64,000 nt of DNA from an uncultured Candidatus Saccharibacteria bacterium (GTDB lineage Bacteria; Patescibacteriota; Minisyncoccia; JACQLN01): assembly GCA_964526375.1 (NCBI GenBank), contig CAZGLK010000001.1, positions 4,811 through 68,810 of the forward strand. Reading direction: 5' to 3'. Every line of letters starts with the position of its first letter. Positions within the stretch are counted from its first letter, which is position 1. Positions 7,379 to 56,884 of this stretch are shown here, piece by piece. A model generated the notes under the pieces. That model made no database searches and was not told the origin of the DNA. It was given only the letters and a program-made list of their open reading frames with translations. The translations under genes were made by a program, and so were the position numbers.

Positions 7379-7397
7379 TTTAAAAGAGGGAATTTGT

Positions 7398-43671: not shown

Positions 43672-43675
43672 CAGC

Positions 43676-43900
43676 ATGAGTATCGTCGAAGAGGTTTTGT
43701 GTAAAGTTATGGGGGTTGGGTCTGTTTCGGACAGCACCTCTCTCAAGGACATAGCCAGTTGGGATTCTTTTAATAGTTTGGTTTTGCTTAACGAGCTGGA
43801 GAGCCAATTTGAAGTTAGGTTTACTTTGGATGAGGCCACGAGCTTTAATAGCGTGGCTGACATTAAACGAATCCTCCAGCAACGCGGCATTAAGGTCTAA
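43676..43900 (+). CDS. acyl/peptidyl carrier protein, paralog 1 of 3
   Basis: 74 aa, phosphopantetheine Ser in the SWDSFNSL motif; paralogs at 55457 and 58643. Confidence 0.7.
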   Translation: MSIVEEVLCKVMGVGSVSDSTSLKDIASWDSFNSLVLLNELESQFEVRFTLDEATSFNSVADIKRILQQRGIKV

Positions 43901-43908
43901 AATACATT

Positions 43909-44607
43909 ATGAAAACTTTTATTTTAAATTTTTTAAAGAAAAAATATCCCGCCGTAAAGTTTATTCTTGAGTATCAACCCAAAAACATAGAGAGAAAGGA
44001 AATATTGCGGCGGATAATGAATTACGTTTCGGCCTGTCGGATCAGCGGGGATTATTTGGAATTTGGCGTTTACAAGGGATCAACTTTCATTGAGGCCTAT
44101 AAAATGGCCAAGGCCAAGAAATTGGAATCAATGAGGTTTTTTGCCTTTGATTCATTTGAAGGTCTGCCGGAAATATCTAAAAAAGAAAGTGATCCGGTTT
44201 CTTTAGAACAATTTAGGGAAGGTCAATATTCATTCTCGCTGGAGAATTTTAGAAAGAATCTAGAGCGGGCTGCCGTTTCTATGGCTGATGTTAAGATTGT
44301 GCCCGGTTGGTTTGATAAGGTTCTTAACGAGGACACCAAAAACAAAATAGGCCTGGGAGCCATAGCGGTAGTGTGGGTGGACGGGGATCTGTACGAGTCG
44401 GCCGTGCCGGTTTTGGATTTTATAAGAGACCATATTGTTGACGGCACGATTTTGGTTTTTGATAATTGGTTTCTCTTCCGGGGTTCTCCCTTTAGAGGTG
44501 AACAGCGGGCTTTTAGGGAATGGCTTAGCCGGAATCCGGACCTTAGTTTTTCGGAATTTCATAAATACTTTTGGCACGGTAATTCTTTTATTATTCATAA
44601 AAACTGA
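43909..44607 (+). CDS. TylF/MycF-family (macrocin-type) O-methyltransferase
   Basis: GDYLEFGVYKGST… VWVDGDLYES… VFDNW. Confidence 0.7.
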   Translation: MKTFILNFLKKKYPAVKFILEYQPKNIERKEILRRIMNYVSACRISGDYLEFGVYKGSTFIEAYKMAKAKKLESMRFFAFDSFEGLPEISKKESDPVSLEQFREGQYSFSLENFRKNLERAAVSMADVKIVPGWFDKVLNEDTKNKIGLGAIAVVWVDGDLYESAVPVLDFIRDHIVDGTILVFDNWFLFRGSPFRGEQRAFREWLSRNPDLSFSEFHKYFWHGNSFIIHKN

Positions 44608-44611
44608 TTTG

Positions 44612-45064
44612 ATGTTTAAGATAACGCAGTTAAAACAAGCCGCGCCGCAGGCCCTAAAAGAAATAAATAATTTGATTTCTAAACTTAGCTTGAGCCGTAT
44701 TCCTCCTAAAAAGCTGACTCGGGACCTTTTTAAGAAGATGCTGGATCAGAAAGATTTTTTTCTTTTTGCGGCGACCGCGCCCAGCGGTGTGGATAACAGG
44801 ATAGTCGGTACTTTAAGCATTTACTTTGTGAGAATACCGACTGGGTTGATTGCCGTGGCCGAAGATTTGATTGTGGAAGAAATTTACCGCCGCTGGGGCG
44901 TGGGGCGCTTGCTTATGGAGAAGGGCATAACCCTGGCCCGCTCCCGACGAGCTAGACACATCAGTCTAAGAACAAATCCCAAGCGGGCGGAGGCCAATAG
45001 GTTGTATCGCTCGTTGGGTTTTAAGCAGATGGCCGCGAATTTTTACCGCATAAACCTTTTTTGA
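44612..45064 (+). CDS. GNAT N-acetyltransferase
   Basis: …EEIYRRWGVGRLLMEKGITLAR… motif A; the start is chosen at MFKITQ 5 nt after the upstream stop, and the ORF-track 5' extension overlaps the upstream gene. Confidence 0.7.
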   Translation: MFKITQLKQAAPQALKEINNLISKLSLSRIPPKKLTRDLFKKMLDQKDFFLFAATAPSGVDNRIVGTLSIYFVRIPTGLIAVAEDLIVEEIYRRWGVGRLLMEKGITLARSRRARHISLRTNPKRAEANRLYRSLGFKQMAANFYRINLF

Positions 45065-45088: not shown

Positions 45089-46465
45089 ATGAACAGGAGC
45101 ACTATTTTTATATCCAGTTTCAATCCTTTTATATCAAGAAACATCCTGTGCACGGATGCCTTTGGTTTGTTTAGAAACAGAGAGGATGTTCTTGTGGTTA
45201 TTTTCGTGCCCGACTACAAATCCGCCTATTTTGTGGAGCGGTTTGGCGGCCCTAATGTTGTTGTTGAGGGCGTGGCTCTGCCCCCGGTTTCATCCGCCGA
45301 TATTTTTTTTACCTACCTGGCCAGTTCTTTAATATGGACTGGAACCCTCTGGGCGCATAAAAAAGAGAAGTTTTTTAGAGACAAAAAACTTTTGCGCTTT
45401 TTAATTTCCGGATTATTGATGAAACTGGCGGGGCGGCTTGGTTTTGTGAAAGACCTGGTGCGCTGGCTGGATCTGTGGACTATGTCGGGGCGTGTGTTTA
45501 GGGACTACTTTGAGAAGTATAAGCCCGATCTTGTTTTTGCTACGGACATTTTTAATAATAATGACGCTAAGCTGATCGCTGAGGCTAAGCTTTTCGGCGT
45601 TGTTAGCGTGGCCATGATCCGTTCCTGGGACAATATTACCTCCAAAGGCATGTTTCGGGTTAAGCCCGGTAAGCTGATAGTTCATAATGAGATTATTAAA
45701 CATGAAGCTGTAAAATACGAACGTATGAACCCCGGTGATATTTTTGTCAGCGGCCTGCCTCAATTTGATAGATACACTAAAGCTCCCCGTCTGGCGCGCG
45801 AGCAGTTTTTCCGCAGGATTAAGCTTGATCCCAAAGGCAAATTGGTTCTGTTTTCACCATTTGGTCAGCGGTTTAGTTCGACCGACTGGCAGGTTCTTGA
45901 TATTTTGAAACAAGGACGTTTGAGAGGAGAGATTCCGAAAGAGACTCAATTTTTGGTTAGACCGCCGCCCAATGACTCTGTTGCTTTTCTGGATAGATTT
46001 GCGGCTGATGAGGCCTTCTTTCTAGATGTGCCCGGCCACCAATTTTCTGCGGGTGTGTTCAGGGACACCGAACTGGACGACAAAGACGCGGAATGGTTAG
46101 CCGATTCTTTGTATCACTGCGATTTGATAATCAGCGCTGGCGCCACCTTGCTTGTGGATGGAGCTGTTTTTAATAAACCGGGGATCTTAATTTATCTGGA
46201 CGGCTGGGAGCAGAGGCCTTATCCAAAGAGCGTCCGCAGGTTTACGGAGTATGATCATGGATTGTTGTTAAGAAACAGCGGGGCAATCAAAACCGTGTTT
46301 ACCCAAGAAGAGCTGTTTGAGGCCATCAATGAATGTTTGCTTAGTCCGGAGAATGACTCGGTTAAACGGCTTAGTATGGCCCAAGAGCAATGCTGGCGGC
46401 TGGATGGTCAATCGGGACGCAGGATTTATAATTTTATATCCAGTCTTTTAGATCCGGATGTCTAG
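45089..46465 (+). CDS. GT-B-fold transferase, TagF/KpsC-like family, paralog 3 of 5
   Basis: …KPDLVFATDI… IRSWDNITSKGMFRV… GLPQFDRY… KLVLFSPFG… RLDGQSGRR. Confidence 0.6.
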   Translation: MNRSTIFISSFNPFISRNILCTDAFGLFRNREDVLVVIFVPDYKSAYFVERFGGPNVVVEGVALPPVSSADIFFTYLASSLIWTGTLWAHKKEKFFRDKKLLRFLISGLLMKLAGRLGFVKDLVRWLDLWTMSGRVFRDYFEKYKPDLVFATDIFNNNDAKLIAEAKLFGVVSVAMIRSWDNITSKGMFRVKPGKLIVHNEIIKHEAVKYERMNPGDIFVSGLPQFDRYTKAPRLAREQFFRRIKLDPKGKLVLFSPFGQRFSSTDWQVLDILKQGRLRGEIPKETQFLVRPPPNDSVAFLDRFAADEAFFLDVPGHQFSAGVFRDTELDDKDAEWLADSLYHCDLIISAGATLLVDGAVFNKPGILIYLDGWEQRPYPKSVRRFTEYDHGLLLRNSGAIKTVFTQEELFEAINECLLSPENDSVKRLSMAQEQCWRLDGQSGRRIYNFISSLLDPDV

Positions 46466-46534: not shown

Positions 46535-47542
46535 ATGAATTCAAATAGTATGCCTCAAGTCAATATAGGTGGAATGTCAATTGGTGAAAATCGACCCGTT
46601 TTTATTTTGGCCGAAGTAGGCCTTAACCATAATGGTGACTTAGGTTTAGCTAAAAGACTTATTGATGTGGCTGTGGACGCCGGCTGCCAAGCCGTAAAAT
46701 TTCAAAAAAGAACCATACCCTTGGCTTTCAGCGAGAGTGACTTAAAAAAGCCGCGTGAAGCCCCAGCGGAGGTTTTGGTTAACGCTATTAAACGTGGAGT
46801 CTTGCCCTCAGAGAATGTAGCTCGTCTGGCCGCATCCAATTTTCAGAATGCAACCTACGGCGACGCCAAGTGGGCGTTAGAATTTACCGAGAGTGAATAT
46901 CGTGAAATAGATAGTTATTGTAAAACCAAAGGTATTTTGTGGACAGCTTCTGTTTGGGACGAGGCCAGCGTTGATTTTCTTGAAAGGTTTAATCCACCCG
47001 TTTATAAAATTCCTTCCCCGTCTTTAACCGATGATAGTTTGTTGCGGCGTGTCCGCAGTACAGGGAGGCCTGTAATTCTCTCTACCGGTATGAGCACTGT
47101 TGAAGAAATTGATCATGCCGTGGCTATTTTAGGCGCAAAAGATTTAGTATTGATGCATTGTGTTTCCACTTATCCTTGCGAGTTGGGGGATATTAACCTT
47201 AGGGTGATTGAATTTTTGGCCAAACGCTACAATGTTCCGATAGGTTACAGTGGCCATGAAAAAGGCGTTTACCCATCTGTACATTCTATTGCTCATGGCG
47301 CCTGTATGGTTGAACGTCATATAACTCTGGATAGAACTATGTGGGGTGGGGATCAGGCGGCTAGTTTGGAACCAAAGGGATTGAGCCTGCTGGTTAAGGC
47401 GATTAAGGTTTACGAAAAGTCGCGTGGCGACGGCGTAAAAAGAGTTTTGGAGTCCGAACTAGTTAAAATGAAAACCTTGCGCCGCAATAAGTCGCCCGAT
47501 ATTTCGGTGGTTAGCCAACCAAATATTATACAACATGGCTAA
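46535..47542 (+). CDS. NeuB-family PEP-condensing sugar-acid synthase (sialic/Kdn/nonulosonate synthase-like)
   Basis: …PVFILAEVGLNHNGDLGLAKRLIDVAVDAGCQAVKFQKRT… (cf. NeuB IVAEIGCNHNGS…AVKFQ); C-terminal SAF-like tail. Confidence 0.75.
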   Translation: MNSNSMPQVNIGGMSIGENRPVFILAEVGLNHNGDLGLAKRLIDVAVDAGCQAVKFQKRTIPLAFSESDLKKPREAPAEVLVNAIKRGVLPSENVARLAASNFQNATYGDAKWALEFTESEYREIDSYCKTKGILWTASVWDEASVDFLERFNPPVYKIPSPSLTDDSLLRRVRSTGRPVILSTGMSTVEEIDHAVAILGAKDLVLMHCVSTYPCELGDINLRVIEFLAKRYNVPIGYSGHEKGVYPSVHSIAHGACMVERHITLDRTMWGGDQAASLEPKGLSLLVKAIKVYEKSRGDGVKRVLESELVKMKTLRRNKSPDISVVSQPNIIQHG

Positions 47543-48290
47543 ATCAATGAACGCCCCTTTTTCTGTAAGCAATAAAGTGGTCATAATAACTGGCGGTAGT
47601 GGTTTTTTGGGCGGCCAGTATGTAGAAGCTTTTAGGGCCGGAGGAGCCACAGTAATCAACTGGGATAGAGATACCGGAGTCGATATTGCCAGCGAAGCTT
47701 CGGTTAGAAGGGCCATTCAAAAGGTTATCAACGAACATGGCCGAGTGGATGTTTTGGTTAATAATGCGGCTTTTAATCCGCAGGTGGGAGAGAAAAGTAT
47801 TTCTGAAAACAATTGGGTTCCCTACGAAAAGTTTTCTGTTTCTGCTTGGGAAAAAGAACTGAAAATAAACCTAACCGGCCAGCTTATTACGACACAGGCG
47901 GTAGCGCCGCGTATGATGAAGCGAAAGTCCGGGTCAATTATATTTGTTTCTTCAGATTTTGCTTTTATGGGGCCCAACAACAGTATCTATGAGTCCGGCA
48001 AGTTTAAGGATGTTGCCTATATAACCTCCAAGGCCGGAGTTTTGGGTTTGATGCGTTCTTGGGCGGCTTACCTTGGTCCGTATAATGTTCGGGTTAACGC
48101 TTTGGTGCCTGGCGGCATGTATCGCAACCAACCGCCCGGTTTTGTTAAGAAGAACGGACGTCTTAATATGTTGGGTCGGATGTCACGGCCGGGAGAATAC
48201 AGCGGTGCCGTGCTTTTCTTGGCTTCGGATGCCGCTTCGTATGCGACTGGTTCTTGTTTGGTAGTGGATGGCGGGCGGACTGCTTGGTAA
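47535..48290 (+). CDS. short-chain dehydrogenase/reductase (SDR)
   Basis: VVIITGGSGFLGG… YITSKAGVLGL…. Confidence 0.75.
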   Translation: MAKSMNAPFSVSNKVVIITGGSGFLGGQYVEAFRAGGATVINWDRDTGVDIASEASVRRAIQKVINEHGRVDVLVNNAAFNPQVGEKSISENNWVPYEKFSVSAWEKELKINLTGQLITTQAVAPRMMKRKSGSIIFVSSDFAFMGPNNSIYESGKFKDVAYITSKAGVLGLMRSWAAYLGPYNVRVNALVPGGMYRNQPPGFVKKNGRLNMLGRMSRPGEYSGAVLFLASDAASYATGSCLVVDGGRTAW

Positions 48291-48293
48291 AAA

Positions 48294-49349
48294 ATGAAAT
48301 TTTTAATTTGCGGTTTGGGCTCTATAGGCCAAAGGCATTACAAAAATTTAAAATCCCTCGGATACGATGATATTTTCGTTTTTCGCAGCGGAAGGGGGGA
48401 CTCTGATTTTGTAAAAAAATTCCTTTTGGAATTTAAGCCCAGGGAGATTTTCAATTTGAAGGAAGCTCTGACTTTAAAGCCGGATGTTGTTTTTGTTACG
48501 AATCCTACAGCTTATCACATTCCGACTGCTTTGGAGGCGGCTCGGGCGAATTGTCACATTTTTATTGAGAAGCCCATTTCCCACACGTCAGAAAATTTGG
48601 AGTATCTTCTTAATGAAGTAACGAAGCGGAATCTAATCAGCTATGTGGCTTATCATTTAAGATTTCATCCCTTGTTGTTAACAATCAAGACTTGGCTTAG
48701 CAATAACAAAAGATTTGGTCGGGCAATCTCGGTGCACGCGGCTTTGGGTGAGCGAGTGACCAATTGGCATCCTTGGGAGGATTATCGAACCAGCTATTCT
48801 TGCCGCGGGGATTTGGGCGGTGGAGTTGTCTTAACTCAAAGCCACGAAGTAGATTACCTGCATTGGTTGTTTGGCCCGGTTAGCCAAGTAAGTGCAATGG
48901 GTGGGCAATTAAGCGATTTGGAAATTGATGTTGAAGATGTGGCCAAAGCTATTTTCAAGTTCAAATCCGGCGTAATAGGCTCTCTGGATCTGGATTACTT
49001 GAAAAGCCCGCCTAAAAGAACATTAGAAATAGTTACTACCTCGGGAAAAATTGCCTGGGACTATTTTGGAAAAACAGCCGAATTTGCTTCAATAAAAAAC
49101 CCGGAAGATAATCTAAAAATTTCGGAGCCGGATAATTTTGAGCGCAATACCTTATACTTGCTAGAACTTGAAAATTTTATAAAATGCGTACAGGAAAACA
49201 GGCAGCCATTGAATTCTTTGGCGGAAGCATATGAGGTTTTTAAATTAATACTGGGCGTTAAAAAATCAATGCTTCTGGACGGCCAATCTGTTCGAATTCT
49301 CTCCAGACGTCCGACCACTGGGAAACAGTGGTCGGACGTCTGTATTTAA
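48294..49349 (+). CDS. Gfo/Idh/MocA-family NAD(P)-dependent oxidoreductase
   Basis: MKFLICGLGSIGQRH… N-terminal Rossmann fold of the family. Confidence 0.7.
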   Translation: MKFLICGLGSIGQRHYKNLKSLGYDDIFVFRSGRGDSDFVKKFLLEFKPREIFNLKEALTLKPDVVFVTNPTAYHIPTALEAARANCHIFIEKPISHTSENLEYLLNEVTKRNLISYVAYHLRFHPLLLTIKTWLSNNKRFGRAISVHAALGERVTNWHPWEDYRTSYSCRGDLGGGVVLTQSHEVDYLHWLFGPVSQVSAMGGQLSDLEIDVEDVAKAIFKFKSGVIGSLDLDYLKSPPKRTLEIVTTSGKIAWDYFGKTAEFASIKNPEDNLKISEPDNFERNTLYLLELENFIKCVQENRQPLNSLAEAYEVFKLILGVKKSMLLDGQSVRILSRRPTTGKQWSDVCI

Positions 49350-51307
49350 GAGTTATTTTTTGGCTTAAAATAGAACCCAAAACGGTACAAACCGGATTTA
49401 AAATTGTTTTCTAAAAGGAATTGGGCGTATTTATTGGCCAGCATCATCTTTTTTTCAAGAAATTTTCGGTAATTGTTATTCATTTTTAGCGCTTGGGGTG
49501 CCGATAGTAGTTTTAATTGTTTGAGCATTTGGCGGCTCAAAGCTCCTGTTTGTTTACTATAGATTAAAAAGTGCGGCAATAATCTTGAGTCTACCGGCAC
49601 GACTACTTTTTCTAAGTTGGAGAAAGAGAGGGCAATATCGGGATCAATTTCAGACGCATTATTTGTGAAAAATATTTTCTGCCAAGCAAAGAGAGATAAC
49701 TTTGCGCAGACGTCGTGTTTTTGATTAAAAAATTTTTCCGTGAAAACATTCAAGGCTTCATAGCCGACGTATACGAGCCGCGTTATCAAGTGGCGCAGGT
49801 CTTGGCGGCCGCCCTTCAACCACAACAATCTTGCTTTAAGCACCTCCTCGGCGAAGCCGGCAAAATAGGGATCTCGTGTCAGTTGAGCGACTCTTTCGAG
49901 AACATAACAAAATGACCTTAAATACAGCAGGGAATTTCTAACATCCAAGGCCGGTTGTTTAAGCATACGCACCAGCCGAGCCAATCTTTCTGGCAACCAA
50001 TCTACCACGCTGGCTACCTCTCTTTGTTTAAGATCTCTTTTCCCAATCTTGTTTAGGGGAATATCTTCTCCCCAGAGTTTAGATAGATTTACCTCGTCAA
50101 AAAGTTTTATATCGGCAAAGTTTTTTTGGCTTATTACCATTAAAGTTCCTGTGGCTACCTGAGAGCCGTATGGGAATTTTTCCGGGGTGATGATATAATC
50201 AGCCGGTTGGGAAGATTTAAGGTTGCCCCGTGTTACCACTATCAGGTCTAAGTCGCTTATGCCAGGTGTTTGCACGCGCCCGTATTCATAAATTGCCGCC
50301 ACATCGCGGTTGTTTTTAAATTTCTTTACCAACTCTTGCCGCGCCTTTTCGTAGACGTTGATTAAAATTGGTCGGGGCTTGTTTTTGTATAAGACGTCTT
50401 GATGCCTTTGCGCCTTAAGGCCTTGTTTCATTTCCTCTATCATGTTTTTGGCTTGGGAAAGATAGTCACGACCCAAAAGCCGCCCCAATTTTTTTAGCGG
50501 TTTTTGGGAGAAGTTTTTTCGAACCAAGGTTGCTTTATCCAGAAGGGGATGGGTGTACAGTTTGAACGAATGTTTTTTGTATAGAATCGAGCCCCGAGCT
50601 TGAAGATAGAGCGCCGGCATTAAGAGCAGTACCGAAACAAAGTATTTAAGATCAAAAATGGTTACCGAGTTGGGATCAAACCTTTTTTTGTCCAGCAATA
50701 TGCGGGCGAACCTTTCAAAAACTTGTTTTTGTTCCGCTCGGGAGTCCCTCAAATGAAAAGTGATGCGGCTGGGACCGAGCAAAATTTTGGCGTTTCTAAA
50801 AACAGGTATGGGCATATAAGCGCTGCAGTAATAATCAAGGTCGGCTTCGTTGCAGCACAAAAAACCGTGGTGACTATTGGGGTCGATCTCTTTTAACAAG
50901 TTTCGGGCCAAGGCCAGTTTGGCTTTGAATTGTTTAAGTTTTTTGGGTTGGGCGCAGACGGCTTTTTTAACAAAGATATAAGTGTCAAGATCGCTGAAAC
51001 CAGGAGTATAGTCTAGAGTAGCCAAACTGCCGTGTATGAAGAAGTAAACCACAAAGGGTGTTAATTCCCCGCGAGCAAAGCTACTTAACCGTTTTAGCGT
51101 TTTGTGAAAAGCTGTACCCCGATACTTTTTTAGATCCAGCGGAGTTGTTTTAAGTGTAAGCCGGCTGGTTTGTTTTGATGTCTCAAAACCGCGGCCGAAC
51201 ATTTTTTGATAACCACGGGCTATTTTAAGAGCTAGTTTAGGATTATCATTTTCGGAGTTTAGGTAGCGGTTTAGGTTATAGTGAAGCTCGTTTTGTTCTT
51301 CCGTCAT
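49346..51307 (-). CDS. hypothetical 653-aa protein with two nucleotidyltransferase-fold-like motifs
   Basis: HGSLATLDYTPGFSDLDTYIFV (~aa 95) and YGRVQTPGISDLDLIVV (~aa 365) both fit the GS…DxD minimal NTase motif; sits in an operon with the CMP-sugar-acid synthetase. Confidence 0.45.
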   Translation of the reverse strand: MTEEQNELHYNLNRYLNSENDNPKLALKIARGYQKMFGRGFETSKQTSRLTLKTTPLDLKKYRGTAFHKTLKRLSSFARGELTPFVVYFFIHGSLATLDYTPGFSDLDTYIFVKKAVCAQPKKLKQFKAKLALARNLLKEIDPNSHHGFLCCNEADLDYYCSAYMPIPVFRNAKILLGPSRITFHLRDSRAEQKQVFERFARILLDKKRFDPNSVTIFDLKYFVSVLLLMPALYLQARGSILYKKHSFKLYTHPLLDKATLVRKNFSQKPLKKLGRLLGRDYLSQAKNMIEEMKQGLKAQRHQDVLYKNKPRPILINVYEKARQELVKKFKNNRDVAAIYEYGRVQTPGISDLDLIVVTRGNLKSSQPADYIITPEKFPYGSQVATGTLMVISQKNFADIKLFDEVNLSKLWGEDIPLNKIGKRDLKQREVASVVDWLPERLARLVRMLKQPALDVRNSLLYLRSFCYVLERVAQLTRDPYFAGFAEEVLKARLLWLKGGRQDLRHLITRLVYVGYEALNVFTEKFFNQKHDVCAKLSLFAWQKIFFTNNASEIDPDIALSFSNLEKVVVPVDSRLLPHFLIYSKQTGALSRQMLKQLKLLSAPQALKMNNNYRKFLEKKMMLANKYAQFLLENNFKSGLYRFGFYFKPKNNS

Positions 51308-52025
51308 ATTTTATGATAGTTTCAGCTACGACCAAGTCTTTGGGCGAATCAATGTCTACGGTTTTTTCCGGACTGACCACAAAACCACGGATGTCGGGGC
51401 CATAAACCCGATTTTTCTTTATGAACTTGGCTCGGGTGGCGTCTACCACTGCATTTTGCCAATAGACGGCTGGTAACCATTGGCGGGGTACATCCGTGCC
51501 CAAGGTTTTGAAATATTTTGTGGCCAGCAAAGGTTTAATTTTACCTTTTTTTTGATCAGCTAGTGTCCACATTTTGTAAGGATTGTATGGATTGGGTGGG
51601 GAAACTGTTCTAACCGAGTCGCAATTTTCTTTAGTCATAAAACTTACAACCTCGTCTATGTCTTTGGATGTTCTTAGGGGCGTGGTGGGTCTTAACAGCA
51701 CGATTATTTCGGGATGCCAATTCCTGTTTTTTTCCAACCAAACTAGGGCGTGTTTGAGGAATTGGATATCGGTGGCGTTGTCGCCAGAGATGTTCTTTGG
51801 TCTTAAAAAGGGCACATCTGCTCCCAGGGACCTAGCCACACCGGCTATTTTTTCGTCGTCGGTGCTAACAATAAAAGCGTCGAGTTGCCTCGATTCTTGT
51901 GCGGATTTTATGGTGTAGTATATCAAAGGTTTTCCGGCTAAAAGCGCTATGTTTTTGTGGGGGATGCCCTTGGAACCACCTCTGGCCGGGATGATGCCCA
52001 GCACTTTTATTTCTTTTTTTGACAT
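51276..52025 (-). CDS. CMP-sugar-acid synthetase (acylneuraminate cytidylyltransferase/NeuA/KdsB family)
   Basis: …LGIIPARGGSKGIPHKNIALLAGKPLIYYTI…. Confidence 0.8.
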   Translation of the reverse strand: MSKKEIKVLGIIPARGGSKGIPHKNIALLAGKPLIYYTIKSAQESRQLDAFIVSTDDEKIAGVARSLGADVPFLRPKNISGDNATDIQFLKHALVWLEKNRNWHPEIIVLLRPTTPLRTSKDIDEVVSFMTKENCDSVRTVSPPNPYNPYKMWTLADQKKGKIKPLLATKYFKTLGTDVPRQWLPAVYWQNAVVDATRAKFIKKNRVYGPDIRGFVVSPEKTVDIDSPKDLVVAETIIKYDGRTKRASL

Positions 52026-52069
52026 TTGCTTATTATTGCATTTTTATATATAGTTATCAATACTTCAAG

Positions 52070-52588
52070 ATTATGGATTCAAAACTGAAAAATAGATTCT
52101 CTAATGTAAAACTTCTGGTTTCTGACTTTGACGGCGTAATGACAGACGGCTATGTTTACTTGGATGAGAACGGCCGGGAGTCGGTTAAGTGCAGCCGCAA
52201 GGACGGTTTGGGTGTGGAACTTCTTAAAAACGCTGGTGTAGAAGTAATGGTTTTGTCCAAGGAAAATAACTCGGTGGTTAAAGCCAGGTGCCGCAAACTG
52301 AAAATAAAATGCCGGCAGGGAATCTCCAGCGGGGCTGGCAAGGTTGGTATTTTAAAGGAAATACTTAAGGCGAAAAATCTTGATAATAAGTCAAGTTGCT
52401 ATATTGGTGACGATATCAATGATGTCGCTGCCATAAAATACGCGGCTGTGGGTGTTGCCGTGGCCGACAGCCACCCGCTGGTTAAAAAAGCGGCCGACTA
52501 TATCACCAAGGCCCGGGGTGGTCACCATGCCGTCAGAGAACTGGCGGAATTGATATTGGAGTCTCAAGGCACCGAGCTTAAGATTTAA
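52070..52588 (+). CDS. KdsC-type HAD phosphatase (sugar-acid phosphate phosphatase)
   Basis: VSDFDGVMTDG… GDDINDV…; the start is taken at MDSKLKN. Confidence 0.75.
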   Translation: MMDSKLKNRFSNVKLLVSDFDGVMTDGYVYLDENGRESVKCSRKDGLGVELLKNAGVEVMVLSKENNSVVKARCRKLKIKCRQGISSGAGKVGILKEILKAKNLDNKSSCYIGDDINDVAAIKYAAVGVAVADSHPLVKKAADYITKARGGHHAVRELAELILESQGTELKI

Positions 52589-52592
52589 AACC

Positions 52593-53942
52593 ATGGAAAC
52601 CATTTTTTTGTTTGTGGATAAAGATTTATTGATACGAGACCTGCTTACCGGCGATTTTTTGCCGTATCTTGCTTCCAAATTTCAAGCGGTAGTTTTTATG
52701 CAGGAGAAATCATATGCAAGAAACAAGGATTTTTTGTTTGCCGGGAGCGATCGTGTTGAATATAAAATCTGGCCGGTTTACAACAATAAATTTTTAGACT
52801 GGATGAAAGCGATTCGGAGCGTGTTCGTAAGGCAATTTGACCACCTGAACGTGCAGCAGTTCAAAAAAAGAAAGCTTCCCGGAACTAAATTCAATCGCTG
52901 GCTGCTGCCATTGGCTAGCGCCGGCCGTCGTTTTTTTACCCTGAAGTTTTTTAAGTCTTTAGAAAAACAGCTTCTTTCCGGTAAATCAAAGGAGATTTTT
53001 AGAGGTTATGTTAACAAATACCGTCCCAGTTGCGTTGTAACCGCGTCTTGCGGCATTATGAATTTTGAGGCCGAAGGGTTGCTGTTGGCGGAATTTTTTG
53101 GTATCCCCACGGTAGCCGTTAACTTTAATTGGGACAATTTGACGTCTAAAGTGCGAAGCTTAAGGTTGCCGGATAAATTGGTTGTTTGGAATGAACCAAT
53201 CAAGAATGTCGCTTTGGAGATGCATGGGTATGAAGCTAATGAAGTGTTTGTTTCGGGGATTATCAGGTTTGATCCCTATTTTAACAAGAGTGCTCCCGAG
53301 TTGCCCGGTCGGGAGGGGTTTTTAAGGTCTAAAGGATTGGATCCCAACAATAAAACGATTGTCTATGCCAGCACGGCTGATTTTGTGTATCCTTTTCAAA
53401 AGGAATTGATAAGTCTGCTGATTGAATTGAGGGATCAAGGCAAACTTTTGGGCCAGCCCAATATCTTTGTTCGTCTCCATTACAAGGATCCAATAGACGG
53501 CTACCGCCGTTTTTTAAACCAGCCCAATGTTTACATAGAAAAATATGAATCTACTTCCTTGGAGCGGGATGGTTTGAATTTGAAGGCGACCCTGCTGTAC
53601 GGTGATGTCCATTTAAATTATGCGTCCACTGTCTCTTTAGATGTCTGTGCCCTAAACCGGCCGCTTATTAATTTGGCCTTTCCGGCCGATGTTGTGGCAA
53701 GATTCCCCAATCAGGATTTTCCGCATTACCGGCCTTTAGTGGAAACCGGCGCGGCGCGGCTGGCTCGCGACCCGATTGAACTGGTTAATCTGATCAACGG
53801 TTATTTTCTTAATCCCGACTTAGATTCAGAAAAACGTGGGGAAATTGCCGCAAATTTGGTTTGTAACGCGGACGGTCTGGCCCATAAGCGGGTTGTGGAT
53901 TTTCTTGTAAATATGGCCGCCGGCAGCTCCAAGAAGGATTGA
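52593..53942 (+). CDS. GT-B-fold transferase, TagF/KpsC-like family, paralog 4 of 5
   Basis: …NFNWDNLTSKVRSL… IIRFDPYF… KTIVYAST…. Confidence 0.6.
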   Translation: METIFLFVDKDLLIRDLLTGDFLPYLASKFQAVVFMQEKSYARNKDFLFAGSDRVEYKIWPVYNNKFLDWMKAIRSVFVRQFDHLNVQQFKKRKLPGTKFNRWLLPLASAGRRFFTLKFFKSLEKQLLSGKSKEIFRGYVNKYRPSCVVTASCGIMNFEAEGLLLAEFFGIPTVAVNFNWDNLTSKVRSLRLPDKLVVWNEPIKNVALEMHGYEANEVFVSGIIRFDPYFNKSAPELPGREGFLRSKGLDPNNKTIVYASTADFVYPFQKELISLLIELRDQGKLLGQPNIFVRLHYKDPIDGYRRFLNQPNVYIEKYESTSLERDGLNLKATLLYGDVHLNYASTVSLDVCALNRPLINLAFPADVVARFPNQDFPHYRPLVETGAARLARDPIELVNLINGYFLNPDLDSEKRGEIAANLVCNADGLAHKRVVDFLVNMAAGSSKKD

Positions 53943-55417
53943 AGCTCCCCGCCCCAAGTGTGAGTTTCACTGGCCCATGGCGCGATTTGGTTACAATTAA
54001 GTTGGCAGCGGAGTTATTAAGTTATGACGGCATGAAGACCATTCTGATCAGTATTTTACAGGGCATTGAAGCCAAAAATATTTTAAGAACTGAGATTTGC
54101 AAAACGCTCTTGGCAACACCCGACATAAGGCTTGTTTTTTTGGTTGGCACCAAGGACAAATTGGATTATTATGGCCGGGAGTTTACGCATCCCAGGATGA
54201 TCTACGAGCTGGTTTTGCCCGTTAAGGTTTCAAGGTGGGATCGTTTTTTGGGTTTCTTAAAATTTAAGCTGATTAACACCGAGACCATAGATTTAAGAAG
54301 AAAACTGGCAGCTAAAGACAATCGCGTCAGTTTTTTTCTGTACCCGTTCATTTTTTTGTTTAATAGAATTTTTGCCCGAAGAATTTTTAGAAAATTTGTT
54401 AGGCAGTTAGACCAGAGCTTGGCCCCGAGTGCCGATTTTTCCTGTCTTTTTGACAAGTATAATGTTGCCGCGGTTTTCCTGGCTCATCTTTTTGACGATA
54501 CGGAGGCCGCTTTGCTGCGCGAGGCGAAGCGAAGGGGAATTGTAAATGTGGGGCTTATAAATTCTTGGGACAAATTAACAGCCCGGTGCATGTTGAGGGT
54601 GTTGCCGGACAAATTGCTGGTTTACAACGATATCGTGAAAAAAGAGGCTGTTGAGTATGCCGATATGCCGCCGGAGAACGTTGTAGCGGTTGGCGTGCCG
54701 CATTATGATCAGTATTTTACCGATAAACCCCCTTCGCTCGATGAATTTTATAAGAGGGCGAACATTGATTCTAAAAAAAGGATTATTCTTTATTCTCCCA
54801 TAGGCAAGTATTTTAGCGACTCGGATTGGGATATAATAGATTTACTCAACGGTTTTACGGAAAACGAGCTAAGGAGTTATAATGTAGAATTGCTGGTTAG
54901 ATTTCAGCCCAATGATTTTGTCAGTGAGATTGAAATCAAGAAAAGGCCTTGGCTTAAATACGATCTGCCCGGCATTAGATTTTCCAATAAGCGCGGGGTT
55001 GACTGGGATATGAATTTTGCGGATCTAAAAAATCTGTTTGACACTCTGTATTACTGTTCACTCCTGGTTTGTTACGCGGCCAGTATAACCGTTGAGGCTG
55101 CTATTTTGGGCAAGCCGGTTATAAATATAAATTTTGAGGTTAAAGACAAGCAAAAACATTCCCAAACGCCAACCTATTTTTACGGCATGAGCCACTATCG
55201 CAAGGTTTTAGCAACCGGCGGCATCCGTTTGGTTAATAGTAAAGAGGAGTTGTTGAAATGGATTAAAATATATTTGGATCAGCCCGAAATTGATGCTGAC
55301 GGCAGATCTAGACTTGTCAGCGAGCAGTGTTGGAGACAAGACGGCCGGGCCGGGCAAAGGATTGCGGGGTTTTTAATAAGCGAAATTGGTTCAAACCGAG
55401 ACGGTGCGGTGGCTTAA
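53939..55417 (+). CDS. GT-B-fold transferase, TagF/KpsC-like family, paralog 5 of 5
   Basis: …LINSWDKLTARCMLRV… GVPHYDQYF… RIILYSPIGKYF… RQDGRAGQR. Confidence 0.6.
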   Translation: MKLPAPSVSFTGPWRDLVTIKLAAELLSYDGMKTILISILQGIEAKNILRTEICKTLLATPDIRLVFLVGTKDKLDYYGREFTHPRMIYELVLPVKVSRWDRFLGFLKFKLINTETIDLRRKLAAKDNRVSFFLYPFIFLFNRIFARRIFRKFVRQLDQSLAPSADFSCLFDKYNVAAVFLAHLFDDTEAALLREAKRRGIVNVGLINSWDKLTARCMLRVLPDKLLVYNDIVKKEAVEYADMPPENVVAVGVPHYDQYFTDKPPSLDEFYKRANIDSKKRIILYSPIGKYFSDSDWDIIDLLNGFTENELRSYNVELLVRFQPNDFVSEIEIKKRPWLKYDLPGIRFSNKRGVDWDMNFADLKNLFDTLYYCSLLVCYAASITVEAAILGKPVININFEVKDKQKHSQTPTYFYGMSHYRKVLATGGIRLVNSKEELLKWIKIYLDQPEIDADGRSRLVSEQCWRQDGRAGQRIAGFLISEIGSNRDGAVA

Positions 55418-55456: not shown

Positions 55457-55687
55457 ATGGACAGGTTAGAAAATTTAATAGCTAGGGTTTTGAATGTTGA
55501 ACCCACCGCGGTAAACGACAACACCAGCCCCGATAATGTGGAAAGCTGGGATTCTTTTAGCAGTTTAATTTTGGTTACGGAACTGGAAAAGAATTTTAAA
55601 GTTAAGTTTAGTTTGGAAGAGGTTGTTCTGGTTAAAAATGTGGGGGACATTAAAAAAGCCTTAAGGAATCATGGCGTGAAAGTATGA
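55457..55687 (+). CDS. acyl carrier protein, paralog 2 of 3
   Basis: 76 aa, SWDSFSSL motif. Confidence 0.7.
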   Translation: MDRLENLIARVLNVEPTAVNDNTSPDNVESWDSFSSLILVTELEKNFKVKFSLEEVVLVKNVGDIKKALRNHGVKV

Positions 55688-56112: not shown

Positions 56113-56143
56113 ATTTTGTTAGGTAAAGAGATAGTTTCAAATT

Positions 56144-56839: not shown

Positions 56840-56884
56840 AATTAAATCAACCAAGGTAGTATATAGTAGCACGGTCTAGCGTCC

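What the first reader, a model, noticed from the sequence alone, without database searches (positions are those of the whole stretch)
46535..52588. NeuB-like synthase / KdsC-like phosphatase / NeuA-like CMP-transferase trio: a CMP-activated 2-keto-3-deoxy sugar acid (Kdn/nonulosonate-type) pathway
Seen in sequence: a NeuB-family synthase (46535), SDR and Gfo/Idh/MocA oxidoreductases, a CTP_transf_3 cytidylyltransferase (51276, - strand) and a KdsC-type HAD phosphatase (52070). Established: synthase plus 9-phosphate or 8-phosphate phosphatase plus CMP-transferase is the route to CMP-Kdn or CMP-Kdo, and NeuB/NeuA without the phosphatase is the sialic, legionaminic or pseudaminic route. Inference: this organism makes a CMP-nonulosonate or octulosonate and incorporates it, perhaps via the TagF/KpsC-like paralogs, into a surface polymer. 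Such sugars are rarely described for CPR-type bacteria.
Basis: partly seen in the sequence, partly recalled or inferred. Interest (0 to 1): 0.55.

Follow-up and report, generated by a model that had tools for sequence, protein, structure and literature searches.

The report
CMP-Kdn-type sugar acid pathway, Parcubacteria
A groundwater Parcubacteria (CPR) genome carries a complete, widely conserved gene set for making a CMP-activated nine-carbon keto-deoxy sugar acid (Kdn type) from a sugar phosphate, set inside a large cell-surface polymer locus; this is a known kind of pathway in an unstudied lineage, with extra conserved enzymes whose roles are unknown.

Summary
All the genes named are present at the stated coordinates on one contiguous Parcubacteria contig, and a related groundwater contig has the same order.

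The synthase is an intact NeuB-family enzyme with every catalytic and metal residue, but no SAF domain. It belongs to a large clade whose sister is the biochemically proven Prymnesium Kdn-9-phosphate synthase, and it shares motifs absent from NeuB, PseI and SpsE.

The phosphatase is YrbI/KdsC-type. It carries the residues of the Bacteroides Kdn-9-P phosphatase rather than those of true KdsC. The cytidylyltransferase is NeuA/PseF-like, not KdsB.

In 81 related loci from many phyla, the synthase sits with the phosphatase in 70, the cytidylyltransferase in 43, the SDR in 38 and the Gfo oxidoreductase in 21. Fusions of synthase with phosphatase and of cytidylyltransferase with phosphatase also exist.

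Best reading: sugar-6-phosphate plus PEP gives a nonulosonate-9-P, then the free acid, then the CMP-sugar. Two oxidoreductases tailor it, and TagF-like transferases related to the Tannerella nonulosonate transferase probably install it.

The exact sugar remains unproven: Kdn, an epimer, Neu5Ac or a longer chain.

The parts
46535..47542 (+). SAF-less NeuB-family synthase of the phosphosugar (Kdn-9-P / Neu5Ac-9-P synthase) type, 335 aa. An alternative start at Met6 gives 330 aa.
   Evidence: Pfam NeuB 244 bits with no SAF hit. It falls below the NeuB and PseI equivalog cut-offs. Catalytic residues E27, K55, Q57, K158, S161, S183, Y213, S239, H241, E260, H262 and D273 align with NmNeuB E25, K53, Q55, K129, S132, S154, Y186, S213, H215, E234, H236 and D247. 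Its clade is sister to the P. parvum Kdn-9-P synthase, and it shares the motifs KFQKR, [SP]WD and DRTxWGxDQAASLEP.
47535..48290 (+). Classical SDR oxidoreductase, 251 aa, overlapping the synthase gene by 8 nt. Predicted tailoring reductase or dehydrogenase.
   Evidence: adh_short_C2 129 bits. The best NCBIfam matches are sugar-acid dehydrogenases (gluconate 5-dehydrogenase, KduD type), all below cut-off. A homologue lies within 10 kb of the synthase in 38 of 81 loci.
48294..49349 (+). Gfo/Idh/MocA sugar dehydrogenase, 351 aa. The last ~15 residues are encoded by the hairpin and are absent from homologues.
   Evidence: Three Gfo/Idh/MocA Pfam domains. The best NCBIfam match is UDP-GlcNAc 3-dehydrogenase. 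The best solved relatives are 3Q2I and 3Q2K, deposited only as 'dehydrogenase'/'oxidoreductase'. A homologue is present in 21 of 81 loci.
49304..49342 (.). Perfect 17-bp inverted repeat with a 5-nt loop, between the two convergent operons. Probably a transcription terminator. One public assembly breaks here.
   Evidence: Sequence read. NCBI contig JACQLP010000020 ends at 49336, inside the second arm. The simple terminator scan did not call it.
49346..51307 (-). 653-aa protein made of two tandem ANT-like nucleotidyltransferase modules. A CPR-specific member of the module; function unknown.
51276..52025 (-). NeuA/PseF-type CMP-nonulosonate synthetase, 249 aa. It overlaps the 653-aa gene by 32 nt, so the two form one operon.
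   Evidence: CTP_transf_3 74.6 bits. PseF 143.9 bits against KdsB models at 35-59 bits. Best PDB hits are CMP-Neu5Ac synthetases 6IFD and 1EYR. 35% identity to the P. parvum CMP-Kdn synthetase over 136 aa.
52073..52588 (+). YrbI/KdsC-family HAD phosphatase, 171 aa from the ATG (the ORF opens at 52019). It has Kdn-9-P-phosphatase-type specificity residues.
   Evidence: TIGR01670 113.6 against 106.95; below the KdsC and Kdn-9-P phosphatase equivalog cut-offs. The DFDGV catalytic motif is present. Glu and Lys occupy the BT1713 Glu56 and Lys67 positions, where E. coli and V. cholerae KdsC have Arg and Thr/Ala. PDB hits are listed.
52593..53942 (+). TagF/TagB-like GT-B transferase, paralogue D. Candidate CMP-ulosonate transferase.
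   Evidence: Glyphos_transf 22.9 bits. NCBIfam BFO_1060 family E=1e-15, below cut-off. BFO_1060 is the Tannerella nonulosonate transferase orthologue.
53939..55417 (+). TagF/TagB-like GT-B transferase, paralogue E.
   Evidence: Glyphos_transf 30.5 bits. BFO_1060 E=6e-10. Paralogy shown.
45089..46465 (+). TagF/TagB-like GT-B transferase, paralogue C, immediately upstream of the synthase.
   Evidence: Glyphos_transf 21.4 bits. BFO_1060 E=5e-8. The same position is occupied in L087.
38562..39935 (+). TagF/TagB-like GT-B transferase, paralogue B.
   Evidence: Glyphos_transf 27.4 bits. 35% identical to paralogue D.
27459..28850 (+). TagF/TagB-like GT-B transferase, paralogue A.
   Evidence: Glyphos_transf 49.6 bits. 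33% identical to paralogue C.
42043..45064 (+). FkbH-domain protein (42043-43671), TylF-type O-methyltransferase (43909-44607) and GNAT (44612-45064). Predicted decoration enzymes of the same glycan.
   Evidence: FkbH TIGR01686 282.6 bits. TylF and acetyltransferase Pfam hits on the same genes in L001. The same genes flank the module in L087 and L091.
55457..58627 (+). Carrier protein (55457-55687, 76 aa), MaoC dehydratase, SDR and AMP-dependent ligase. A set for loading an acyl or glyceroyl group, in the same operon as the phosphatase.
   Evidence: PP-binding, MaoC_dehydratas, adh_short_C2 and AMP-binding hits. The same set follows the module in L087.

Best explanation
The locus encodes the phosphosugar route to a CMP-activated nonulosonic acid of the Kdn type.

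Proposed steps:
1. The SAF-less NeuB-type synthase condenses PEP with an aldose phosphate of manno configuration, most likely mannose-6-phosphate. The product is a 3-deoxy-nonulosonate 9-phosphate.
2. The YrbI/KdsC-type phosphatase removes the phosphate.
3. The NeuA-type enzyme makes the CMP-sugar from CTP.
4. The Gfo/Idh/MocA dehydrogenase and the SDR, which travel with the cytidylyltransferase in many genomes, probably oxidise and re-reduce one hydroxyl. That would epimerise or otherwise tailor the sugar, so the product may not be plain Kdn.
5. TagF/TagB-like GT-B paralogues, together with the GT4 and GT2 enzymes and the flippase of the surrounding 40-kb locus, are predicted to build an anionic polymer or glycan on the surface of this peptidoglycan-containing CPR cell. 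That polymer would resemble a teichulosonic acid. An FkbH, carrier-protein and methyltransferase set would decorate it further.

Shown here: family assignments, intact catalytic residues, relationship to a proven Kdn-9-P synthase, conserved synteny and gene fusions.

Inferred: the substrate, the order and role of the two oxidoreductases, the acceptor, and the role of the 653-aa tandem nucleotidyltransferase.
For: - Family hits for all five enzymes.
- The synthase active site is fully conserved against NmNeuB.
- The synthase clade has 100% bootstrap support and is sister, at 77%, to the P. parvum Kdn-9-P synthase. That enzyme accepts only Man-6-P (paper PMC6200933).
- The motifs KFQKR, [SP]WD and DRTxWGxD[QH]AAS[LV]EP are shared with that enzyme and with SAF-bearing synthases of related CPR modules. 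They are absent from NmNeuB, PseI, SpsE and 6NCS.
- The phosphatase has Glu and Lys where BT1713 has Glu56 and Lys67; true KdsC enzymes have Arg and Thr/Ala.
- The cytidylyltransferase is NeuA/PseF-like, not KdsB-like.
- Synteny in 81 loci from many phyla: phosphatase 70, cytidylyltransferase 43, SDR 38, Gfo 21.
- Fusion proteins link the steps: synthase-HAD (P0147), synthase-TIM barrel (P0122), synthase-SIS (P0009, P0017, P0195), all; and cytidylyltransferase-HAD (L056).
- Related CPR contigs repeat the module.
- KpsC/S-like or TagF-like transferases lie next to the module in other phyla.
- The TagF-like paralogues hit the BFO_1060 nonulosonate-transferase family.
- The window is a chromosomal glycan locus of a Parcubacteria bacterium that also carries MurD and ClpB.
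Against: - No enzyme was assayed, so the sugar is not identified.
- Identity to the proven Kdn-9-P synthase is only 35%, and the sister relationship has 77% support, not more.
- The synthase, phosphatase and cytidylyltransferase all fall below every NCBIfam equivalog cut-off, so none is an orthologue of a characterised enzyme.
- Plain Kdn synthesis needs no oxidoreductases, yet SDR and Gfo are conserved here.
- In some relatives the synthase is fused or adjacent to a GmhA-like heptose-phosphate isomerase. That points to a seven-carbon substrate in at least those genomes.
- No mannose-6-P isomerase is visible in the 64-kb window.
- The reading of Glu56 and Lys67 as Kdn-9-P phosphatase markers rests on my recollection of Lu et al. 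2009, which could not be read here.
- Three of the five TagF-like paralogues lack the His of the R-x-H position.
Confidence: 0.65

Rival explanations
1. The module makes a longer-chain (C10) ulosonic acid. D-glycero-D-manno-heptose 7-phosphate, made from sedoheptulose-7-P, is condensed with PEP to a 3-deoxy-deculosonate 10-phosphate, which is then dephosphorylated and CMP-activated.
For: Several close homologues of the synthase are fused to a SIS_2 domain. That domain shows what I recall as the GmhA signature (CGNGGS..DA.HF.EEL.GR ... RIQEVH). A GmhA-like gene lies within 10 kb in 21 of 81 loci. Loss of the SAF domain could open the sugar pocket. CMP-activated ulosonic acids with a C10 backbone have just been reported in Magnetospirillum (bioRxiv 10.64898/2026.04.20.719630).
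Against: No SIS or GmhA gene lies in the 64-kb window or in the closest CPR modules. The nearest characterised synthase is strictly specific for Man-6-P. A GmhA-like isomerase could equally make Man-6-P from Fru-6-P, or serve a separate heptose residue of the same glycan.
Confidence: 0.12
2. The module is an animal-like sialic acid route: ManNAc-6-P plus PEP gives Neu5Ac-9-P, then Neu5Ac, then CMP-Neu5Ac.
For: The synthase belongs to the phosphosugar-type branch. From my own recollection of the human NANS sequence, that branch also contains Neu5Ac-9-P synthase. Cytidylyltransferase-HAD fusions in relatives mirror the vertebrate CMAS architecture; the CMAS C-terminal domain 3EWI is among the PDB hits of the phosphatase. 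Serratia capsule strains with a NeuB fusion produce Kdn and Neu5Ac in a ratio of about 20:1 (PMC9000132).
Against: The window has no UDP-GlcNAc 2-epimerase, ManNAc kinase, NanE, GlmS or aminotransferase. The closest proven relative does not accept ManNAc-6-P.
Confidence: 0.1
3. The module supplies CMP-Kdo. The NeuB-type enzyme replaces KdsA, acting on arabinose-5-P, for a Kdo-containing capsule-like polymer.
For: The phosphatase scores slightly higher against KdsC models and structures than against BT1713. KpsC/KpsS-like (Capsule_synth) proteins sit next to the module in Chloroflexi and Peribacteria; from my own knowledge these are beta-Kdo transferases in E. coli.
Against: The cytidylyltransferase is clearly NeuA/PseF-like and scores far below KdsB models. 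The phosphatase has Glu and Lys where KdsC has Arg and Thr/Ala. The nearest proven synthase does not use arabinose-5-P. No KdsD-type isomerase is present.
Confidence: 0.05
4. The synthase and phosphatase only extend a carbon chain for a non-glycan or non-CMP product, as seems to occur in relatives where a TPP-dependent enzyme follows them. The nearby cytidylyltransferase would then serve something else.
For: In about 19 loci (Acidobacteria, Melainabacteria and others) the synthase-phosphatase pair is followed by a 606-aa TPP enzyme, with no cytidylyltransferase nearby.
Against: The window has no TPP enzyme. Its phosphatase, cytidylyltransferase, SDR and Gfo are closest (36-49% identity) to those of the loci that do contain a cytidylyltransferase. 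The same set recurs in related CPR contigs. Cytidylyltransferase-phosphatase fusions tie the steps together.
Confidence: 0.05

Closest known systems
CMP-Kdn pathway of Bacteroides thetaiotaomicron (BT1713 phosphatase, BT1714 synthase, BT1715 synthetase) and of Prymnesium parvum
   Same: The same three steps and the same three protein families. The synthase is the nearest characterised relative in the tree and shares the KFQKR / WD / DRTxWGxDxAASLEP motifs; the P. parvum enzyme also lacks a SAF domain. The phosphatase shares BT1713's Glu56 and Lys67 residues.
   Different: Identity is only 30-35%. This module adds a conserved SDR, a Gfo/Idh/MocA dehydrogenase and, in CPR, a 653-aa tandem nucleotidyltransferase. 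The synthase carries a ~37-residue insertion specific to the CPR subclade. BT1714 itself could not be compared because no sequence was available.
Vertebrate sialic acid route NANS / NANP / CMAS
   Same: It uses a phosphorylated sugar, a dedicated phosphatase step and a CMP-transferase. The CMAS C-terminal domain is a KdsC-like HAD (3EWI), like the cytidylyltransferase-HAD fusions in Chloroflexi relatives. SAF-bearing synthases with the same motifs occur in related CPR modules.
   Different: The window has no enzymes that make ManNAc-6-P and no SAF domain. The similarity to human NANS is recalled from memory, not tested here.
ptmA / ptmB(legF) / ptmF genes of legionaminic acid clusters (Campylobacter, Vibrio fischeri, Plesiomonas)
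   Same: A ~250-aa 'flagella modification protein', a ~230-aa CMP-transferase and a ~330-aa oxidoreductase sit side by side (PMC4481668). The sizes and arrangement match the SDR / cytidylyltransferase / Gfo set here and the CTPtr3-Gfo-SDR operon in L091.
   Different: The resemblance is in size, arrangement and annotation only. Sequence homology to PtmA and PtmF could not be tested. The SDR scores 105 bits against the 255-bit cut-off of NF006619, which I recall as the flagellin-modification-protein-A model. Legionaminic acid clusters also need a dehydratase, an aminotransferase, an N-acetyltransferase and a NeuC-type epimerase, none of which is present here.
Streptomyces coelicolor teichulosonic acid (Kdn polymer) cluster SCO4873-SCO4882
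   Same: A monoderm-type cell envelope. NeuA- and NeuB-like genes sit beside a NeuE-related protein and teichoic-acid-type glycosyltransferases, and make a phosphate-free anionic wall polymer (PMC3479208 and PMC13011467). The second-best PDB hit of the phosphatase (3MMZ) shares its Glu/Lys residues; it is from Streptomyces by my recollection.
   Different: No sequence comparison with the SCO proteins was possible. The polymer of this CPR organism is unknown.
Tannerella forsythia nonulosonate transferase Tanf_01245 / BFO_1060
   Same: A TagB-like GT-B protein shown by knock-out to be required for adding a CMP-activated Pse or Leg derivative (PMC5420450). Three of the window's TagF-like paralogues hit its NCBIfam family with E values from 1e-15 to 5e-8.
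   Different: All hits are well below the family cut-off (at most 58 bits against 200). The His of the sialyltransferase-type HP motif is kept in only two of the five paralogues.
Serratia marcescens KL1/KL2 capsule NeuA and NeuB (NeuB fused to a COG1082 sugar-phosphate isomerase domain)
   Same: That NeuB is linked genetically to Kdn production (PMC9000132). A xylose-isomerase-like TIM-barrel gene lies next to, or is fused with, the SAF-less synthase in many relatives.
   Different: The window itself has no such TIM-barrel gene.

Membership tests
NeuB family (PF03102) PEP-condensing ulosonate synthases | NeuB TIM-barrel domain scoring above the Pfam gathering score | tested here: met
   244.3 bits against 22.1
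NeuB family (PF03102) PEP-condensing ulosonate synthases | Catalytic Glu residues, PEP-binding Lys/Ser residues and the two metal-binding His residues of NmNeuB | tested here: met
   All 12 residues checked are conserved in the HMMER alignment to 2WQP and invariant in 26 homologues. The residue roles are from my own knowledge of the NmNeuB structure papers.
Bacterial Neu5Ac, Pse or Leg synthases (NeuB_NnaB, PseI equivalogs) | C-terminal SAF/antifreeze-like domain, and a score above the equivalog cut-off | tested here: not met
   No SAF hit; the protein ends 33 residues after the NeuB domain. TIGR03569 scores 244 against 399.65; TIGR03586 scores 196 against 340.25.
Phosphosugar-type synthases (Kdn-9-P / Neu5Ac-9-P synthase branch) | Groups with an experimentally proven 9-phosphate synthase and shares its distinguishing motifs | tested here: met
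   Sister to the P. parvum Kdn-9-P synthase at 77% bootstrap, with its own clade at 100%. The motifs are shared only with that enzyme.
Phosphosugar-type synthases (Kdn-9-P / Neu5Ac-9-P synthase branch) | A dedicated sugar-acid phosphate phosphatase encoded alongside | tested here: met
   A KdsC-type gene lies 4.5 kb away in the window and within 10 kb in 70 of 81 related loci. A synthase-HAD fusion exists (P0147).
Phosphosugar-type synthases (Kdn-9-P / Neu5Ac-9-P synthase branch) | Activity with Man-6-P or ManNAc-6-P and not with free sugars | not testable with these tools
   Needs an enzyme assay.
YrbI/KdsC subfamily of HAD-IIIA phosphatases | Subfamily model score and the DxD nucleophile motif | tested here: met
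   TIGR01670 113.6 against 106.95. DFDGV aligns with the DxDGV motif of BT1713 and KdsC.
KdsC (Kdo-8-P phosphatase) equivalog | Equivalog score, and Arg at the position that aligns with BT1713 Glu56 | tested here: not met
   NF007019 138.7 against 208. The window has Glu where E. coli and V. cholerae KdsC have Arg.
Kdn-9-P phosphatase (BT1713) equivalog | Equivalog score, and the Glu56 and Lys67 residues | tested here: inconclusive
   NF058599 100.1 against 180, which is not met. Glu and Lys are present at both positions. Their status as specificity markers is recalled from the literature and was not checked here.
CMP-nonulosonate synthetases (NeuA / PseF / LegF, PF02348) | CTP_transf_3 domain, and closer to NeuA/PseF than to KdsB | tested here: met
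   Pfam 74.6 against 22.6. PseF 143.9 bits against KdsB models at 35-59 bits. The top PDB hits are CMP-Neu5Ac synthetases. It is below the PseF equivalog cut-off of 205.7.
Canonical Kdo pathway (KdsD, KdsA, KdsC, KdsB) | KdsA-type Kdo-8-P synthase and a KdsB cytidylyltransferase | tested here: not met
   No family or NCBIfam hit to KdsA or KdsB was found among the window ORFs scanned. The rest of the genome was not available.
Legionaminic / pseudaminic acid pathways | NDP-sugar 4,6-dehydratase, DegT-type aminotransferase, N-acetyltransferase and a hydrolysing 2-epimerase next to the synthase | tested here: not met
   No aminotransferase or NeuC-type epimerase was found in the window. A phosphatase is present instead.
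TagB/TagF-like GT-B transferases, including the BFO_1060 nonulosonate transferase family | Family model above cut-off, and a conserved catalytic His (HP motif) | tested here: inconclusive
   Glyphos_transf scores of 21-50 bits straddle the 22.1 cut-off. BFO_1060 scores at most 58 bits against 200. The His is kept in two of five paralogues.

The most novel reading that the evidence does not exclude
The module does not make plain Kdn but an undescribed ulosonic acid. That could be a Kdn epimer or keto derivative produced by the conserved Gfo and SDR pair, or a C10 acid in relatives where the synthase is fused to GmhA. In CPR bacteria the 653-aa tandem ANT-like nucleotidyltransferase, found only beside this module, would add a step unknown in any sialic-acid-type pathway, for example nucleotidylylation of a hydroxyl of the sugar or of the growing polymer.
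Probability: 0.25. Interest if true: 0.7.

Novelty: new variant of a known kind. Interest (0 to 1): 0.45.

Why it matters
CPR/Patescibacteria are tiny bacteria that live attached to host cells, and their surface chemistry is almost unknown. Nonulosonic acids are classic mediators of cell-cell recognition, phage resistance and immune evasion.

This work shows that a Parcubacteria genome, and many other CPR, Chloroflexi, Myxococcota and Acidobacteria genomes, carry a coherent phosphosugar-type CMP-ulosonate module. That gives a concrete, testable candidate for an anionic surface glycan in these lineages.

It also defines sequence motifs that separate phosphosugar-type synthases from ordinary NeuB, PseI and LegI enzymes, which current annotation lumps together as 'N-acetylneuraminate synthase family protein'.

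Finally, it flags three conserved partners with no assigned role: the SDR, the Gfo dehydrogenase and the tandem nucleotidyltransferase. The core chemistry itself is not new.

Tried and rejected
1. Suspected that the trio was an artefact of concatenated contigs, because NCBI contig JACQLP010000020 stops at 49336 and another contig (JACQLP010000016, reversed) covers window ~3976-7402. Rejected. All the genes are recorded on a 77,981-bp contig, L087 repeats the order, and the hairpin arms continue across the break.

2. Exact look-ups of the 653-aa protein and of the full Gfo product found no further contigs.

3. Looked for a GmhA/SIS gene in the window: none.

4. The best PDB hit by score is 6NCS, a 290-aa NeuB deposited as an N-acetylneuraminic acid synthetase (Leptospira by my recollection). 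It lacks the KFQKR, WD and WGxD motifs and falls outside the clade, so shortness alone does not define the group.

5. Literature searches found nothing on this module. The queries were NeuB+KdsC+GmhA, ulosonic acid+heptose, and nonulosonic acid+Patescibacteria.

6. Could not read Wang 2008, Lu 2009 or Daughtry 2013 on BT1713 and BT1714. The meaning of the phosphatase marker residues therefore rests on memory.

7. Could not obtain sequences for BT1714, SCO4881, Serratia NeuB, PtmA or PtmF, so those comparisons remain at the level of gene architecture.

8. A chimeric query (synthase plus TIM barrel) was used to fish for fusion proteins. It found synthase-TIM, synthase-HAD and synthase-SIS fusions, but not the Serratia protein.

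10. The promoter and terminator scan of the region was no better than shuffled sequence for promoters, and it did not call the 17-bp hairpin.

Full report
**What is there**

Window 46535-52588 holds two convergent operons and the start of a third.

On the + strand are three genes:
- a NeuB-family gene (46535-47542);
- an SDR gene that overlaps it by 8 nt (47535-48290);
- a Gfo/Idh/MocA gene 3 nt further on (48294-49349).

On the - strand are two genes:
- a CTP_transf_3 gene (51276-52025);
- a 653-aa ORF (49346-51307) that it overlaps by 32 nt.

Diverging from the cytidylyltransferase, a KdsC/YrbI-type HAD phosphatase (ATG at 52073, ending at 52588) opens a + strand operon. That operon continues with two TagF-like genes, a 76-aa carrier protein, a MaoC dehydratase, a second SDR and an AMP-dependent ligase.

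A perfect 17-bp hairpin (49304-49342) separates the convergent operons. Alignment with homologues shows that the Gfo protein is complete before the hairpin-encoded tail.

**Is the window contiguous, and whose is it?**

One public assembly of the same organism (GCA_016204085.1) breaks inside the hairpin at 49336. Another of its contigs maps, reversed, to window ~3976-7402. I therefore checked whether the trio might be a concatenation artefact.

It is not, for three reasons:
- ClpB, MurD, the synthase, the cytidylyltransferase and the 653-aa protein are all on record on a 77,981-bp contig of a 'Parcubacteria group bacterium' (MBI41199xx proteins).
- An independent 17.3-kb contig from another groundwater site (L087, whose 655-aa homologue is 72% identical) shows the same order. 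That order is TylF, GNAT, TagF-like, NeuB, SDR and Gfo, convergent with the 655-aa gene and CTP_transf_3, then divergent HAD, TagF-like, TagF-like, carrier protein, MaoC and SDR.
- The rest of the window carries ComEC, EF-P, Nth, MurD and ClpB, followed by 40 kb of glycan genes. These include GT4 and GT2 transferases, a flippase, a C-methyltransferase, 4,6-dehydratase- and RmlD-like genes, and five TagF-like paralogues.

The organism is thus a CPR bacterium with peptidoglycan, and the finding lies inside a large surface-glycan locus.

**The synthase**

It is a full NeuB catalytic domain (244 bits) without the C-terminal SAF domain. It falls below the NeuB and PseI equivalog cut-offs.

The alignment to N. 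meningitidis NeuB shows every residue I checked conserved. These are E25, K53, Q55, K129, S132, S154, Y186, S213, H215, E234, H236 and D247, which correspond to window E27, K55, Q57, K158, S161, S183, Y213, S239, H241, E260, H262 and D273.

It has thousands of homologues of 290-335 aa in CPR, Chloroflexi, Acidobacteria, Myxococcota, Melainabacteria and other phyla.

The supplement of PMC6200933 gave the sequence of the Prymnesium parvum Kdn-9-P synthase. That enzyme converts only Man-6-P, and not ManNAc-6-P, arabinose-5-P or free sugars.

In a neighbour-joining tree, the window protein and its relatives form a clade with 100% bootstrap support. The Prymnesium enzyme is its sister at 77%. NmNeuB, PseI, SpsE, the short protein 6NCS and two paralogues from L004 lie outside.

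Three motifs are shared only by this clade and the Kdn-9-P synthase: KFQKR, [SP]-W-D and DR[TA]-x-W-G-x-D-[QH]-A-A-S-[LV]-E-P. Synthases of more distant CPR modules have the same motifs and do carry a SAF domain. The motifs, not the missing SAF domain, therefore mark the phosphosugar-type branch. From memory, human Neu5Ac-9-P synthase has them too.

**The phosphatase and the cytidylyltransferase**

The HAD protein passes the YrbI/KdsC subfamily model but neither the KdsC nor the Kdn-9-P phosphatase equivalog.

Aligned with BT1713 (the Bacteroides Kdn-9-P phosphatase, sequence from the same supplement), it has Glu and Lys at the positions of BT1713 Glu56 and Lys67. So do 24 of 26 and 22 of 26 stand-alone phosphatases that accompany the synthase elsewhere, and the structure 3MMZ. 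E. coli and V. cholerae KdsC have Arg and Thr/Ala at these positions. I recall these two positions as the published specificity markers, but I could not read the papers.

The cytidylyltransferase scores 144 bits to PseF and 102 bits to a CMP-Neu5Ac synthetase structure. It scores only 35-59 bits to KdsB models. It is 35% identical to the Prymnesium CMP-Kdn synthetase over its N-terminal 136 residues.

**Conserved neighbourhood**

I examined 81 loci that carry a relative of the synthase. Within 10 kb of the synthase, tblastn with the window's proteins found the following.

| Partner | Loci with a hit (of 81) |
|---|---|
| Phosphatase | 70 |
| Cytidylyltransferase | 43 |
| SDR | 38 |
| Gfo dehydrogenase | 21 |
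| GmhA-like SIS protein | 21 |

Two layouts stand out.

The first layout is the one the window belongs to, judged by sequence identity of 36-49% for phosphatase, cytidylyltransferase, SDR and Gfo. It reads [Gfo] ... SDR, cytidylyltransferase, phosphatase, synthase. In Chloroflexi the cytidylyltransferase and phosphatase are often fused into one 406-aa protein. KpsC/KpsS-like or TagF-like transferases, a xylose-isomerase-like TIM barrel, sulfotransferase genes and sometimes the SIS gene often lie nearby.

The second layout occurs in Acidobacteria, Melainabacteria and others. It has the synthase and phosphatase followed by a TPP-dependent enzyme, with no cytidylyltransferase. It is probably a different pathway.

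Fusion proteins link the synthase to a HAD domain (P0147), to the TIM barrel (P0122) and to a GmhA-like SIS domain (P0009, P0017, P0195, P0235).

**How it most likely works**

The route is a sugar phosphate plus PEP giving an ulosonate phosphate (synthase), then the free ulosonate (phosphatase), then the CMP-ulosonate (cytidylyltransferase). Three lines of evidence favour a nine-carbon Kdn-type acid made from Man-6-P:
- the relationship to the Man-6-P-specific synthase;
- the BT1713-type residues of the phosphatase;
- the NeuA-type cytidylyltransferase.

The window has no aminotransferase, NeuC-type epimerase or ManNAc-forming enzyme. This argues against Leg, Pse or Neu5Ac.

The Gfo protein gives its best NCBIfam match to UDP-GlcNAc 3-dehydrogenase, and its best solved relatives (3Q2I, 3Q2K) are, by my recollection, WlbA-type sugar 3-dehydrogenases; the entries themselves are deposited only as 'dehydrogenase'/'oxidoreductase'. 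The SDR resembles sugar-acid dehydrogenases of the gluconate 5-dehydrogenase and KduD type. Plain Kdn needs neither enzyme. I therefore infer an oxidation-reduction step (epimerisation or another tailoring reaction) on the sugar, before or after activation.

Legionaminic acid clusters show the same side-by-side trio: a ~250-aa 'flagella modification protein' (PtmA), a CMP-transferase and a ~330-aa oxidoreductase (PtmF). I could not test homology to those proteins.

**Where the sugar goes**

Three of the five TagF-like paralogues (those scanned against NCBIfam) hit the NCBIfam family named after BFO_1060. BFO_1060 is the orthologue of the Tannerella forsythia transferase whose deletion removes the terminal Pse or Leg derivative from the O-glycan. 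All hits are below the family cut-off, and only two paralogues keep the His of the R-x-H position.

In Streptomyces coelicolor, NeuA- and NeuB-like genes sit with a NeuE-related protein and teichoic-acid-type transferases in the cluster for the Kdn-containing teichulosonic acid.

A teichulosonic-acid-like anionic polymer is therefore a reasonable model for this locus, but it is only a model. The FkbH protein, carrier protein, TylF-type methyltransferase, GNAT, MaoC, SDR and AMP-ligase genes travel with the module in L087 and L091. They suggest acyl or (methyl)glyceroyl decoration.

**The overlooked member**

The 653-aa protein has only about a dozen full-length homologues; the sources name only two of them, both as Patescibacteria. 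The three whose contigs were fetched lie beside CTP_transf_3, Gfo, SDR, HAD and NeuB genes.

ANT enzymes transfer an NMP onto a sugar hydroxyl, so a nucleotidylyl transfer to the sugar or the polymer is conceivable. Nothing here shows it.

**Rivals**

- A C10 acid made from heptose-7-P is suggested by the GmhA fusions in relatives, but no GmhA gene lies in the window or in the nearest CPR modules.
- CMP-Neu5Ac by the animal-type route lacks any ManNAc-6-P supply.
- CMP-Kdo is disfavoured by the NeuA-type cytidylyltransferase and by the phosphatase residues.
- A role that does not involve a CMP-sugar fits the loci with the TPP enzyme, not this one.

**Novelty and verdict**

The core three-step pathway is known from Bacteroides, Prymnesium and, in outline, vertebrates. 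Three things are new:
- its presence as a coherent module in a Parcubacteria surface-glycan locus, and widely across uncultured phyla;
- the conserved oxidoreductase pair;
- the CPR-specific tandem nucleotidyltransferase.

No paper in the library combines 'nonulosonic acid' with 'Patescibacteria'.

I rate it a new variant of a known kind, of moderate interest. The identity of the sugar and the roles of three conserved proteins remain open.

Noticed in passing
L008 10001-13277, and about 19 similar loci (for example L012, L014, L017, L042): In Acidobacteria, Melainabacteria, Verrucomicrobia and Planctomycetes, the same SAF-less synthase and KdsC-type phosphatase are followed by a 606-aa TPP-dependent enzyme. 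A DegT aminotransferase, an NDP-sugar epimerase/dehydratase, an NTP transferase, an FkbM methyltransferase and a GmhA-like gene lie nearby, and no cytidylyltransferase is present. One possibility is an ulosonate that is made and then decarboxylated, giving a net two-carbon extension. I could not match this to any described pathway.
   Followed up: partly
window 49346-51307 (-): A 653-aa protein built from two tandem ANT-like nucleotidyltransferase modules, each with an intact catalytic motif. Of about a dozen full-length homologues, the only two named by their sources are Patescibacteria, and the three whose contigs were fetched sit inside this sugar-acid module. No function can be assigned.
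   Followed up: yes
window 49304-49342: A perfect 17-bp inverted repeat between convergent operons. Its second arm encodes the last residues of the Gfo ORF and overlaps the stop codon of the 653-aa gene. One public assembly of the organism breaks exactly inside it.
   Followed up: yes
window 55457-55687 (+): A 76-aa phosphopantetheine carrier protein gene (WDSFSSL motif), below the 80-aa minimum set for the ORF listing. It overlaps the MaoC start by 4 nt. With FkbH (42043-43671), TylF-type methyltransferase, GNAT, MaoC, SDR and AMP-ligase, it looks like a system that loads a glyceroyl or acyl decoration. The same set occurs in L087 and L091.
   Followed up: partly
window 27459-28850, 38562-39935, 45089-46465, 52593-53942, 53939-55417: Five TagF-like paralogues fall into two groups: 38562 with 52593, and 27459 with 45089 and 53939. 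All share an SWDNxT motif and an invariant His near the C-terminus. Only the first group keeps the His of the R-x-H position.
   Followed up: partly
L056 855-2072, and about 30 Chloroflexi loci: The cytidylyltransferase and the KdsC-type phosphatase are fused into one ~406-aa protein. Vertebrate CMP-sialic acid synthetase has the same domain order.
   Followed up: partly
L010, L015, L048, L057, L060: Chloroflexi loci carry two copies of the SAF-less synthase and two cytidylyltransferases, with one phosphatase, Gfo, SDR, TIM barrel and GmhA-like gene. Sulfotransferase and ATP sulfurylase/APS kinase genes lie in related loci. This suggests two related sugar acids and a sulfated glycan.
   Followed up: no
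L004 174-20954: A single contig with three NeuB-family genes (one with a SAF domain), three or four CTP_transf_3 genes, several B12-binding radical SAM enzymes and a LIC12162-family protein. It is a very dense and unusual ulosonic acid locus.
   Followed up: no
window 16453-20337 (+): A 1294-aa ORF with no NCBIfam match, lying between ClpB and the glycan locus.
   Followed up: no
window 35402-38541 (+): A sugar C-methyltransferase (Methyltransf_13/14), a 4,6-dehydratase-like gene and an RmlD-like reductase. They indicate that a branched 6-deoxy sugar is made in the same locus.
   Followed up: no
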